Positions 49,201 to 52,200 of a stretch of 64,000 nucleotides of DNA are shown piece by piece. This DNA comes from Escherichia coli (GTDB taxonomy: Bacteria > Pseudomonadota > Gammaproteobacteria > Enterobacterales > Enterobacteriaceae): the NCBI RefSeq assembly GCF_029227855.1, contig NZ_CP074356.1, one strand, 5' to 3'. A program made the position numbers. Numbering within the stretch: position 1 is the first letter of the stretch; every line of letters starts with the position of its first letter.

Positions 49201-52200
49201 CAGCACATTCAGTTTCGGCATGGGGAACGCTGCCGGGTTGTTATTCGCCGGAATTATGCTGGGCTTTATGCGTGCTAACCACCCGACCTTCGGTTACATT
49301 CCGCAGGGTGCATTAAGCATGGTGAAGGAGTTCGGCTTGATGGTGTTTATGGCAGGCGTTGGTCTGAGCGCTGGTAGCGGTATTAATAACGGCCTGGGCG
49401 CGATTGGCGGTCAGATGTTGATTGCCGGATTGATTGTCAGTCTGGTGCCAGTGGTTATCTGCTTCTTGTTCGGTGCTTATGTATTGCGAATGAACCGCGC
49501 ACTGTTGTTCGGCGCAATGATGGGCGCACGCACCTGCGCGCCGGCAATGGAGATCATCAGTGATACAGCTCGCAGTAACATCCCGGCGCTGGGCTATGCG
49601 GGCACCTACGCAATCGCCAACGTCCTGCTGACGCTGGCAGGGACAATCATCGTCATGGTATGGCCAGGATTAGGATAAAACTGAAGTTGCCCTGAAAATG
49701 AAATTTTTTTGCACAACCGCAGAACTTTTCCGCAGGGCATCAGTCTTAATTAGTGCCACTGCTTTTCTTTGATGTCCCCATTTTGTGGAGCCCATCAACC
49801 CCGCCATTTCGGTTCAAGGTTGGTGGGTTTTTTGTTGCCTATAATTTATCTACTACCCTGCAACCCTCTCAACCATCCTCAAAATCTCCTCGCGCGATAG
49901 CGGCTTACGGTCGGTGACAAAATGCAGCGTCATCCCCTCAATAAACGCATCAAGCGCGCGGGCGGTTCCGGGTTCAAACCATTGTTCGAGCGTTTGCTGA
50001 CTGCGCTGCATCCAGTTTTGCATTACCGTTTTTAATAGCGGTTTTCGGCTAGCCAGCGCGTAGAGCTGGTACATCAGCTCCATGTTATCCGGCGTTGCAA
50101 CCTGTGAGCTGTAGATCATATCGGTGATAGCCTGGCATGCGCCTTGAGCATCACTAACATCGCTAAAAAATGCCTGATATTGCCGGGACATGATCTCAGT
50201 AAAACTGCTGAACGCCTCCAGCAACAACTCATCAATTCCTGAAAAATAGTAGGTCATCGACCCCAACGGTACCCCGGCAAGGGTAGCAATTTTGCGGTGC
50301 GTAACAGCATGTATTCCGTAAAGTTTCACCGCCTCCAGCGTGGCCTGGATAATTTTTTCTCGCCGTTGCGGATCGTTAGCGCGACGCATGTCATTTCCTC
50401 TCTCTGCAATTGTGTACAAATGTACACAACCTTGCTAATGTTGTCTTCCCTCTTCTTATTTTGACGTGATCTATGACCGTAAATTCTTCACGTAATGCAT
50501 TGAAACGCCGAACCTGGGCGCTGTTTATGTTCTTCTTTTTGCCGGGCCTGTTAATGGCGTCCTGGGCAACCCGTACGCCTGCTATCCGCGATATTCTTTC
50601 TGTTTCGATCGCTGAAATGGGCGGAGTCCTCTTTGGTCTGTCGATCGGTTCAATGAGCGGTATTCTCTGCTCGGCGTGGTTAGTGAAACGCTTTGGGACG
50701 CGTAATGTCATCCTGGTCACGATGTCCTGCGCATTGATCGGGATGATGATACTAAGTCTGGCACTCTGGCTGACATCGCCCCTGCTCTTCGCGGTTGGCC
50801 TCGGCGTCTTTGGGGCAAGTTTTGGTTCTGCGGAAGTGGCGATAAACGTTGAAGGTGCTGCCGTTGAGCGAGAAATGAATAAGACGGTTTTGCCGATGAT
50901 GCACGGTTTTTATAGCCTGGGCACGCTGGCAGGCGCTGGTGTCGGGATGGCACTGACGGCCTTTGGCGTTCCGGCAACGGTGCACATTTTATTGGCGGCG
51001 CTGGTAGGCATCGCGCCTATTTATATCGCCATTCAGGCAATCCCTGACGGTACGGGCAAAAATGCTGCCGATGGCACCCAGCATGGTGAAAAAGGCGTAC
51101 CTTTTTATCGCGATATCCAGTTGCTGCTGATTGGTGTTGTGGTGCTAGCGATGGCCTTTGCCGAAGGTTCTGCCAACGACTGGTTACCCTTATTAATGGT
51201 TGACGGTCACGGTTTTAGCCCTACTTCCGGCTCGCTGATTTATGCCGGTTTTACCCTGGGGATGACTGTTGGACGCTTTACCGGCGGTTGGTTCATCGAC
51301 CGTTACAGTCGCGTTGCCGTGGTTCGGGCCAGTGCACTAATGGGAGCGTTGGGTATTGGGCTGATTATTTTTGTCGATAGCGCCTGGGTCGCTGGGGTGT
51401 CTGTTGTACTTTGGGGACTGGGTGCCTCGCTGGGCTTCCCGCTGACCATTTCTGCCGCCAGCGATACCGGCCCCGATGCACCAACCCGCGTCAGTGTGGT
51501 AGCAACGACCGGTTATCTGGCTTTCCTCGTCGGGCCGCCACTGCTGGGCTATCTCGGCGAACATTATGGATTACGTAGTGCAATGCTGGTTGTACTGGCG
51601 CTGGTTATTCTCGCGGCTATTGTCGCGAAAGCCGTCGCCAAACCCGATACCAAAACGCAGACGGCGATGGAGAATAGTTGATGAGCATTAAATTAATTGC
51701 GGTAGACATGGATGGTACTTTCTTAAGCGATCAAAAAACCTATAACCGTGAGCGGTTTATGGCTCAGTATCAGCAAATGAAAGCACAAGGCATTCGCTTT
51801 GTGGTCGCCAGCGGGAATCAATATTATCAGTTGATCTCTTTCTTTCCGGAAATTGCTAATGAAATAGCCTTTGTGGCTGAAAACGGCGGCTGGGTAGTGA
51901 GCGAAGGCAAAGATGTTTTTAATGGCGAGCTGTCGAAGGATGCGTTTGCTACTGTCGTGGAACATTTGCTGACGCGCCCGGAAGTGGAAATTATTGCCTG
52001 CGGAAAAAATAGCGCCTATACCCTCAAAAAATATGACGATGCCATGAAAACGGTGGCGGAAATGTATTATCACCGTCTGGAATACGTCGATAACTTTGAC
52101 AACTTAGAAGATATCTTCTTTAAGTTTGGTCTGAATCTTTCCGATGAACTGATTCCACAAGTACAAAAAGCATTACATGAGGCCATCGGCGATATTATGG

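What the first reader, a model, noticed from the sequence alone, without database searches (positions are those of the whole stretch)
49720..49833. rybB sRNA with intact sigmaE promoter
The RybB sRNA sequence, as I remember it, is present together with a GAACTT-N16-TCTTA promoter and an intrinsic terminator, between ybjL and rcdA. It is a known element but easily missed by ORF-based annotation, and it confirms the envelope-stress regulatory circuit is present in this strain.
Basis: partly seen in the sequence, partly recalled or inferred. Interest (0 to 1): 0.25.

Follow-up and report, generated by a model that had tools for sequence, protein, structure and literature searches.

The report
Ordinary rybB small RNA gene
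This is the well-known E. coli envelope-stress small RNA gene rybB with its sigma-E promoter and terminator, essentially identical to the laboratory K-12 copy, so it is real but ordinary.

Summary
Rfam RybB (RF00110) hits window 49758-49836 (+) at 104.1 bits, against a cut-off of 40. The curated K-12 rybB gene (b4417) aligns to 49755-49833. GAACTT-N16-TCTTA lies at 49722-49748, with a 6-nt discriminator before +1 G49755. That motif occurs once in 64 kb, against 0.01 expected by chance.

From the ybjL stop codon to RNA position 68 the sequence is identical to K-12. The single RNA difference is G49823 where K-12 has A. It turns a U-A pair of the terminator stem into U-G; the predicted fold is unchanged and 0.6 kcal/mol weaker.

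The flanking genes are ybjL and rcdA, as stated. Promoter plus RNA are present in 5418 of 5426 complete E. coli genomes. No sampled pipeline-annotated RefSeq record annotates the gene, which supports "easily missed".

One claim overreaches. rpoE, rseA, degS and hfq are outside the window, so the window cannot confirm the whole circuit.

One extra point: the last 11 nt of rybB plus 16 nt downstream form the known attachment site of Fels-2/186-like prophages. The site is empty in this window and occupied in about 21% of genomes.

Verdict: already known, low interest.

The parts
47993..49678 (+). ybjL (aspartate:alanine antiporter family transporter), the upstream neighbour on the same strand; its stop codon ends 76 nt before rybB +1
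   Evidence: ORF of 561 aa. Annotated as ybjL in the identical 118UI locus and in K-12.
49694..49710 (+). A/T-rich stretch GAAAATGAAATTTTTTT at -61 to -45, where UP elements of sigma-E promoters lie (inferred)
   Evidence: Sequence read directly and identical to K-12. PMC3326320 defines the UP region as -65 to -35 and models it by A- and T-tracts. Not tested here.
49721..49729 (+). -35 element AGAACTTTT, matching the sigma-E consensus GGAACTTTT at 8 of 9 positions
   Evidence: consensus taken from PMC1804206. AACTTTT is invariant in E. coli, Klebsiella and Salmonella copies.
49743..49748 (+). -10 element GTCTTA, matching the sigma-E consensus GTCAAA at 4 of 6 positions, 16 nt after GAACTT
   Evidence: consensus from PMC1804206. 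Klebsiella and Salmonella have GTCATA, and CATCAGTC is invariant.
49755..49833 (+). RybB small RNA, 79 nt, +1 = G49755; 78 of 79 nt identical to K-12 b4417
   Evidence: Rfam RF00110 at 104.1 bits. Alignment to NC_000913.3 887979-888057. The exact allele is in 738 of 5420 E. coli records, and nearly all the rest differ by 1 nt.
49755..49770 (+). 5' seed (target-pairing) domain GCCACUGCUUUUCUUU, containing the conserved 10-mer CACUGCUUUU at 49757-49766
   Evidence: Identical in K-12, Klebsiella and Salmonella copies. PMC6694218 describes CRCUGCUUUU as the conserved seed of sigma-E-dependent small RNAs including RybB. The 16-nt extent is from my own knowledge (Papenfort et al. 2010).
49789..49833 (+). 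Intrinsic terminator and Hfq-binding 3' end: 12-bp stem (49789-49800 with 49818-49829), 17-nt loop with a small inner hairpin, then six U (49828-49833)
   Evidence: Rfam consensus structure. MFE folds. PMC6694218 uses the RybB 3' end as the Hfq-binding and terminator scaffold.
49823..49823 (+). The only RNA difference from K-12: G instead of A, so pair U49795-A becomes a U49795-G wobble
   Evidence: Alignment. Same MFE structure at -24.6 versus -25.2 kcal/mol. The same G is present in a Salmonella contig and in lysogen CP099754.
49823..49849 (.). Unoccupied attachment site (attB) of Fels-2/186-like P2-family prophages. The 27-bp core overlaps the last 11 nt of rybB, and the crossover segment is about 49823-49836.
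   Evidence: A 27-bp direct repeat flanks a 34-kb prophage in CP099754. Junctions of three further lysogens place the crossover in (A/G)TGGGTTTTTTGTT. Known from PMC10121019 and PMC4048246.
49853..50389 (-). rcdA (TetR-family regulator), the convergent downstream neighbour; its stop codon is 19 nt past the RNA 3' end
   Evidence: ORF list. Annotation of 118UI and K-12.

Best explanation
Window 49721-49833 (+) is the chromosomal rybB gene of an Escherichia coli strain.

The working model runs as follows. Envelope stress frees sigma-E. RNA polymerase carrying sigma-E starts at G49755 from the promoter AGAACTTTT-N14-GTCTTA, which has a 6-nt discriminator. Transcription stops at the hairpin and six-U terminator ending at 49833, giving a 79-nt RNA. 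The RNA's 3' hairpin and U-tail bind Hfq. Its single-stranded 5' end (GCCACUGCUUUU...) pairs with many outer-membrane-protein mRNAs such as ompC, ompA and ompW, blocking their translation and speeding their decay. This lowers porin synthesis and feeds back on sigma-E.

Shown here: RNA family membership, near-identity to the K-12 gene and its promoter, the terminator fold, synteny, and near-universal presence in E. coli. Taken from the literature on K-12 and Salmonella, and inferred for this strain: sigma-E dependence, Hfq dependence and the target set.

The gene's 3' end also serves as an empty integration site for P2-family prophages.
For: - **Family match:** Rfam RybB at 104.1 bits against a cut-off of 40, full-length, and the only hit in the local region.
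- **Identity to K-12:** 78 of 79 nt match curated K-12 rybB, and all 76 nt upstream of +1, back to the ybjL stop codon, are identical.
- **Promoter motif:** unique in the window, with 0.01 expected by chance.
- **The one substitution:** it keeps the stem pair (U-A to U-G) and the MFE structure.
- **Terminator fold:** z = -4.1.
- **Synteny:** ybjL-rybB-rcdA.
- **Distribution:** promoter plus RNA are found in 5418 of 5426 complete E. coli genomes.
- **Cross-genus conservation:** the -35 core, CATCAGTC of the -10 region, the seed and the terminator are conserved in Klebsiella and Salmonella copies.
- **Literature:** rybB and micA promoters fall to background in delta-rpoE, and sigma-E consensus motifs are given (PMC1804206). 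rybB is among the active and strongly competing sigma-E promoters (PMC3326320). It is called one of the strongest promoters of the regulon (PMC12249550). The seed, Hfq scaffold and OmpA/OmpC repression are described in PMC6694218.
Against: Nothing in the sequence argues against it. The limits are these.

- No expression data exist for this strain.
- rpoE, rseA and hfq are not in the window.
- The -10 element matches the published consensus at only 4 of 6 positions, as it does in K-12, where the promoter is nevertheless strong.
- The simple terminator scan did not call the hairpin, because the tool only allows loops of 3-8 nt.
- The inverted-repeat finder also missed it, because the G-T wobble breaks the exact seed.
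Confidence: 0.97

Rival explanations
1. The locus is a decayed or silent rybB copy, with the promoter, seed or terminator disabled, so the strain lacks functional RybB.
For: One base differs from K-12 inside the terminator stem. The -10 element has two mismatches to the consensus (PMC1804206).
Against: The promoter and seed are identical to the experimentally active K-12 sequence. The substitution gives a U-G wobble with the same fold, only 0.6 kcal/mol weaker. The same 79-nt allele is in 738 E. coli records and the same G in a Salmonella contig. The -10 mismatches are the wild-type K-12 state.
Confidence: 0.02
2. The RNA arises mainly as the 3' end of ybjL read-through transcripts. On this view it is a 3'-UTR-derived RNA, or the hairpin is simply the ybjL terminator, rather than a product of its own sigma-E promoter.
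For: ybjL is on the same strand and ends 76 nt upstream. No terminator-like hairpin was found between its stop codon and rybB, so the rybB hairpin probably also ends ybjL transcripts (inference).
Against: A full sigma-E promoter with correct spacing sits at the right distance from the mapped K-12 5' end. Promoter fusions in Salmonella and E. coli are sigma-E dependent (PMC1804206, PMC3326320). The Rfam model and the K-12 annotation start at the promoter-defined +1.
Confidence: 0.03
3. The interval encodes a small protein instead of, or as well as, an RNA. Candidates are the mechanical ORFs 49753-49917 (+, 54 aa, GTG start) and 49670-49807 (-, 45 aa).
For: These ORFs appear in the six-frame list.
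Against: They are mechanical calls. The + strand ORFs run through the terminator and antisense into rcdA. The high conservation is fully explained by RNA and promoter function. No annotated protein lies here in any record inspected.
Confidence: 0.01

Closest known systems
E. coli K-12 MG1655 rybB (b4417; Rfam RF00110 RybB)
   Same: Same locus (ybjL-rybB-rcdA). The promoter region is identical from the ybjL stop codon to +1. The length is 79 nt, with the same seed, terminator architecture and six-U tail.
   Different: One base differs: G49823 where K-12 has A, giving a U-G wobble in place of U-A in the terminator stem. The 13 nt between the RNA end region and the rcdA stop codon differ at 4 positions. 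The gene is on the + strand of the window, so the window is the reverse complement of K-12 numbering.
Salmonella and Klebsiella rybB (sigma-E-dependent RybB of Papenfort et al. 2006, PMC1804206)
   Same: The RNA is almost invariant across genera. AACTTTT of the -35 element and CATCAGTC of the -10 region are shared. The Salmonella contig carries the same G allele.
   Different: The -10 element is GTCATA in those genera and GTCTTA in E. coli. The spacer and UP region diverge.
MicA, MicL (E. coli) and MicV, VrrA (Vibrio): other sigma-E-dependent Hfq small RNAs
   Same: Same regulatory logic: a sigma-E promoter drives an Hfq-binding RNA that represses abundant envelope proteins. MicV and VrrA share the seed CRCUGCUUUU with RybB (PMC6694218, PMC4102768).
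   Different: They are different genes, loci and Rfam families. No Rfam family other than RybB matched the local region.
attB sites of P2-family (Fels-2/186-like, 'Felsduovirus') prophages in rybB: E. coli hotspot #29 (PMC10121019) and Kpn38RybB (PMC4048246)
   Same: The window carries the homologous 27-bp core overlapping the rybB 3' end. In lysogens the prophage sits exactly between 49849 and 49850, with its integrase next to rcdA.
   Different: The site is empty here. The window core differs at 2 of 27 positions from the core duplicated in lysogen CP099754 and at 5 of 27 from K-12.

Membership tests
RybB sRNA (Rfam RF00110) | Covariance-model score at or above the curated gathering score, full-length | tested here: met
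   104.1 bits against 40; model positions 1-79 of 79; E = 2.5e-20. Repeated locally at E = 3.9e-22.
RybB sRNA (Rfam RF00110) | Conserved single-stranded 5' seed GCCACUGCUUUU... | tested here: met
   Identical to K-12, Klebsiella and Salmonella. Unpaired in the Rfam consensus structure; the MFE fold pairs only CCAC of the first 12 nt, in a weak 4-bp helix. The conserved 10-mer is described in PMC6694218.
RybB sRNA (Rfam RF00110) | 3' Rho-independent terminator hairpin with a U-tail (Hfq-binding module) | tested here: met
   A 12-bp stem followed by six U. Terminator segment -22.7 kcal/mol, z = -4.1. Hfq binding itself was not tested.
RybB sRNA (Rfam RF00110) | Conserved genomic position between ybjL and rcdA (ybjK) | tested here: met
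   PMC1804206 gives the same intergenic region in Salmonella and E. coli.
Sigma-E (RpoE, ECF) dependent promoters | -35 GGAACTT(TT) and -10 (G)TCAAA-type motifs with a spacer of about 16 nt and a discriminator of about 6 nt before +1 | tested here: met
   AGAACTTTT (8 of 9 positions), 16 nt between GAACTT and TCTTA, GTCTTA (4 of 6 positions), 6 nt to G49755. Identical to the K-12 promoter. Consensus from PMC1804206 and PMC3326320.
Sigma-E (RpoE, ECF) dependent promoters | Transcription requires sigma-E in vivo or in vitro | not testable with these tools
   Shown for the identical K-12 sequence and for Salmonella in PMC1804206 and PMC3326320. Not measured for this strain.
Hfq-dependent trans-acting sRNAs repressing OMP mRNAs | Hfq binding and seed pairing with ompC, ompA, ompW and other mRNAs | not testable with these tools
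   The target genes and hfq are outside the window. Inferred from seed identity and the literature (PMC6694218, PMC1804206).
attB of rybB-integrating P2-family prophages | Core sequence shared with the phage attP and duplicated at both prophage ends in lysogens | tested here: met
   The 27-bp repeat GTGGGTTTTTTGTTGCCTGAAATTTAT is at both junctions of CP099754. The window has 25 of 27 positions at 49823-49849. The crossover was mapped to (A/G)TGGGTTTTTTGTT in three other lysogens.
attB of rybB-integrating P2-family prophages | Occupied by a prophage in this window | tested here: not met
   rybB is followed directly by rcdA; 19 nt separate the RNA end from the rcdA stop codon.

The most novel reading that the evidence does not exclude
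G49823 and the GCCT... flank at 49837-49849 may not be neutral drift. They could be a footprint of past integration and excision of a Fels-2/186-like phage, or an attB variant matched to a G-type attP. If so, phage traffic would be rewriting the terminator and Hfq-binding 3' end of a core-regulon small RNA.

Points in favour:
- All 5 differences from K-12 in the 251-nt region lie inside the 27-bp att core.
- The window flank matches the phage-type flank better than the K-12 type (11 of 13 against 9 of 13 positions).
- In the four lysogens examined, the phage arm carries the same base (A or G) as the host rybB allele.
- The exact 60-nt junction haplotype is rare, found in at most 135 of about 5400 records.

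Points against:
- Four of the five differences lie in the only unconstrained 19 nt of the region.
- A Salmonella contig whose downstream sequence is not phage-like also has G and GCCTGA.
- The predicted effect on the RNA is only 0.6 kcal/mol.
Probability: 0.15. Interest if true: 0.3.

Novelty: already known. Interest (0 to 1): 0.08.

Why it matters
It matters little beyond annotation quality. rybB is a textbook sigma-E-dependent Hfq small RNA, and this copy is the common E. coli gene with a minor structure-preserving allele.

There are two practical points. First, the sampled pipeline-annotated RefSeq E. coli records leave this gene unannotated, so an RNA-family scan is needed to see it. Second, the gene's 3' end is a prophage attachment site. 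It is empty here and occupied in roughly a fifth of complete E. coli genomes, which is useful when comparing strains across this region.

Tried and rejected
- **Consensus promoter and terminator scan.** It found no sigma-70-type promoter on the + strand, as expected for a sigma-E promoter. It did not call the rybB terminator, because the tool requires a loop of 3-8 nt and this hairpin has a 17-nt loop region.
- **Repeat finder on 49600-49950.** It reported no inverted repeat, because the G-T wobble at 49795/49823 splits the arms into exact seeds shorter than 7 nt.
- **Relaxed sigma-E-like motif GAACTT-N15-17-TCNNA.** It gave two further matches, at 11205 (+) and 35451 (-). Three matches against 1.28 expected is not significant (16 of 100 shuffles reached it), and both extra matches lie inside genes, so I treat them as chance.
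- **Thompson et al. 2007, the E. coli rybB promoter paper.** The paper is not held. Sigma-E dependence is therefore cited from PMC1804206, PMC3326320, PMC12249550 and PMC6694218.
- **Small-ORF reading of the interval.** Rejected as mechanical.
- **Collection-wide scans (genome or metagenome contigs) and a custom covariance model.** Judged unnecessary. Identity to the experimentally characterised K-12 sequence is stronger evidence, and the RNA is too invariant across genera to give covariation.

Full report
**Observation.** The interval 49720-49833 reads cagaacttttccgcagggcatcagtcttaattagt|GCCACTGCTTTTCTTTGATGTCCCCATTTTGTGGAGCCCATCAACCCCGCCATTTCGGTTCAAGGTTGGTGGGTTTTTT. A scan of the whole window against Rfam 15 at gathering thresholds gave a full-length RybB (RF00110) match at 49758-49836 (+): 104.1 bits against a cut-off of 40, E = 2.5e-20. 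A permissive scan of 49300-50300 found nothing else. The curated MG1655 record annotates rybB (b4417) at 887979-888057 on the minus strand, between rcdA and ybjL. In alignment that gene corresponds to window 49755-49833. The Rfam model simply starts 3 nt inside the RNA and runs 3 nt past it.

**Promoter.** GAACTT is at 49722-49727, followed by 16 nt and then TCTTA at 49744-49748. A 6-nt discriminator (ATTAGT) precedes G49755. This exact motif occurs once in 64 kb on both strands, and dinucleotide shuffles give 0.01. Against the consensus quoted by Papenfort et al. (-35 GGAACTTTT, -10 GTCAAA; PMC1804206), the window has AGAACTTTT (8 of 9 positions) and GTCTTA (4 of 6). More telling, all 76 nt from the ybjL stop codon to +1 are identical to K-12. 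That stretch includes the A/T-rich segment at -61 to -45, where UP elements lie.

Published work covers that promoter. The rybB promoter falls to background in delta-rpoE Salmonella (PMC1804206). It is among the active and strongly competing sigma-E promoters in the 60-promoter E. coli and Salmonella library (PMC3326320). [quoted passage not shown] Copies picked up in a Klebsiella prophage record and a Salmonella contig keep AACTTTT, CATCAGTC and the +1 region, while the spacer and upstream region diverge. The word "intact" is therefore justified by sequence. Sigma-E dependence in this particular strain is inferred, not shown.

**RNA.** The window differs from K-12 at 1 of 79 positions: G49823 instead of A. 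In the Rfam structure, the 5' arm 49789-49800 pairs with the 3' arm 49818-49829. Position 49823 pairs with U49795, so U-A becomes a U-G wobble. The MFE structure is unchanged and 0.6 kcal/mol weaker, at -24.6 against -25.2. The terminator segment folds at -22.7 kcal/mol, z = -4.1, and is followed by six U. The 5' end GCCACUGCUUUU... is identical to K-12, Klebsiella and Salmonella. It contains CACUGCUUUU, the conserved seed of sigma-E-dependent small RNAs (PMC6694218).

**Distribution.** The 79-nt RNA and the 126-nt promoter-plus-RNA segment are found in 5418 of 5426 complete E. coli genomes. The exact window allele is in 738 of 5420 records, and nearly all the others differ by one base. In all roughly 55 records sampled by those two searches the tool reported no annotated feature under the match. 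The roughly 55 records listed by the two searches with the wider 251-nt query named only ybjL and rcdA, and the 118UI locus has no rybB feature. Only the curated MG1655 record lists rybB.

**Mechanism.** The model below is literature-based and applied here by sequence identity.
- Misfolded outer-membrane proteins trigger RseA proteolysis and release sigma-E.
- Sigma-E holoenzyme transcribes rybB.
- Hfq binds the 3' hairpin and U-tail.
- The 5' seed pairs with omp mRNAs (ompC, ompA, ompW, lamB, tsx and others), repressing translation and accelerating decay.
- This lowers the OMP folding load and feeds back on sigma-E (PMC1804206, PMC6694218).

No terminator-like site lies between ybjL and rybB, so the rybB hairpin probably also ends ybjL transcripts. 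That is my inference.

**Overreach.** The window corresponds to about 874-938 kb of K-12, in reverse orientation. This estimate extrapolates the rybB coordinates along the gene order seen in strain 118UI, which is colinear with window 1747-49692. It does not contain rpoE-rseABC, degS, rseP or hfq. The finding is consistent with the circuit being present but does not confirm it.

**Surroundings: an empty prophage attachment site.** About 1160 of 5426 genomes match the 251-nt query only up to window 49848/49849 and resume at 49853. In CP099754 a 34-kb P2-family prophage lies exactly there. It encodes CI, CII, Fil, the replication endonuclease, P2-type capsid and tail genes and ogr, with its integrase next to rcdA. 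It is flanked by a 27-bp direct repeat, GTGGGTTTTTTGTTGCCTGAAATTTAT. The repeat starts inside the rybB terminator stem and covers the last 11 nt of the RNA.

Three further lysogens carry the K-12-type A allele. In them the rybB-side copy continues GCCTGAAATTTA(T/A), or GTCTGAAATTTAT in one, which is phage-derived. The rcdA-side copy continues ATCTAAAA(C/T)TTAT, which is bacterial and K-12-like. This places the crossover within (A/G)TGGGTTTTTTGTT, that is window 49823-49836. Related integrase and att arms occur in Escherichia phage vB_EcoM-813R9 and several Klebsiella phages. The Klebsiella phage 4LV2017 record carries rybB sequence at its annotated attR.

All of this is published: Felsduovirus prophages integrate in rybB at E. 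coli hotspot #29 (PMC10121019), and a Fels-2-like island, Kpn38RybB, was described in Klebsiella (PMC4048246). In the window the site is unoccupied.

**A small oddity.** All five differences between the window and K-12 in the 251-nt region fall inside this 27-bp core. The window's 13-nt flank, GCCTATAATTTAT, is nearer the phage type (11 of 13 positions) than the K-12 type (9 of 13). The exact 60-nt junction haplotype is rare, in at most 135 records. This could be a phage footprint. However, four of the five differences lie in the only unconstrained 19 nt between the RNA end and the rcdA stop codon, and a Salmonella contig whose downstream sequence is not phage-like also has G and GCCTGA. I rate the footprint reading at about 0.15 and of modest interest.

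**Verdict.** The element is already known, the allele is a minor structure-preserving variant, and interest is low.

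Noticed in passing
window 49823-49849: The 3' end of rybB plus 16 nt downstream is the attB core of Fels-2/186-like P2-family prophages. The site is empty here but occupied by 24-35 kb prophages in about 1160 of 5426 complete E. coli genomes. The crossover maps to (A/G)TGGGTTTTTTGTT. This is known from PMC10121019 and PMC4048246.
   Followed up: yes
window 49823-49852: All 5 differences from K-12 in the 251-nt region cluster in the att core and spacer. The window flank GCCTATAATTTAT resembles the phage-type flank more than the K-12 type. The exact 60-nt junction haplotype is rare (at most 135 records). In four lysogens the phage arm carries the same A or G as the host rybB allele.
   Followed up: partly
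window 49755-49833 (and matching RefSeq records): None of about 75 sampled pipeline-annotated RefSeq E. coli records annotate rybB; the tool reports 'none' under the match. The curated MG1655 record does annotate it.
   Followed up: partly
window 19052-20435: A 1.38-kb insertion between lysO and aqpZ, absent from strain 118UI. It encodes a 341-aa IS110-family transposase at 19325-20350 (-), with Pfam domains DEDD_Tnp_IS110 and Transposase_20. Its ends and any non-coding RNA of the element were not examined.
   Followed up: partly
window 7622-8573: Between tRNA-Ser (7492-7576) and clpA (8632-10923, -) lie two features. One is a two-repeat type I-F CRISPR remnant: a degenerate repeat at 7622-7649, a 32-nt spacer, and a full repeat at 7682-7709 (Rfam CRISPR-DR4). 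The other is an IS200-like element with a Y1 transposase at 7971-8429 (-) and its STnc490 RNA at 8439-8562 (-, 144.6 bits). Strain 118UI has different content here.
   Followed up: partly
window 38145-38177: Strain 118UI carries a 3.5-kb PTS IIC/IIB plus sulfatase island between rlmC and artJ. The window lacks it.
   Followed up: no
NZ_CP024886.1 159372-159441 (E. coli AR_0017): One genome has a rybB copy about 9 nt shorter, at only 87% identity, which may be a deletion allele. Eight of 5426 genomes gave no rybB match, and 7 matches lie on records labelled as plasmids.
   Followed up: no
window 11205-11232 (+) and 35451-35478 (-): Two further matches to a relaxed sigma-E-like motif (GAACTT-N15-17-TCNNA), both inside genes (antisense to clpS; within artI). 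The count is at chance level: 3 found against 1.28 expected.
   Followed up: no
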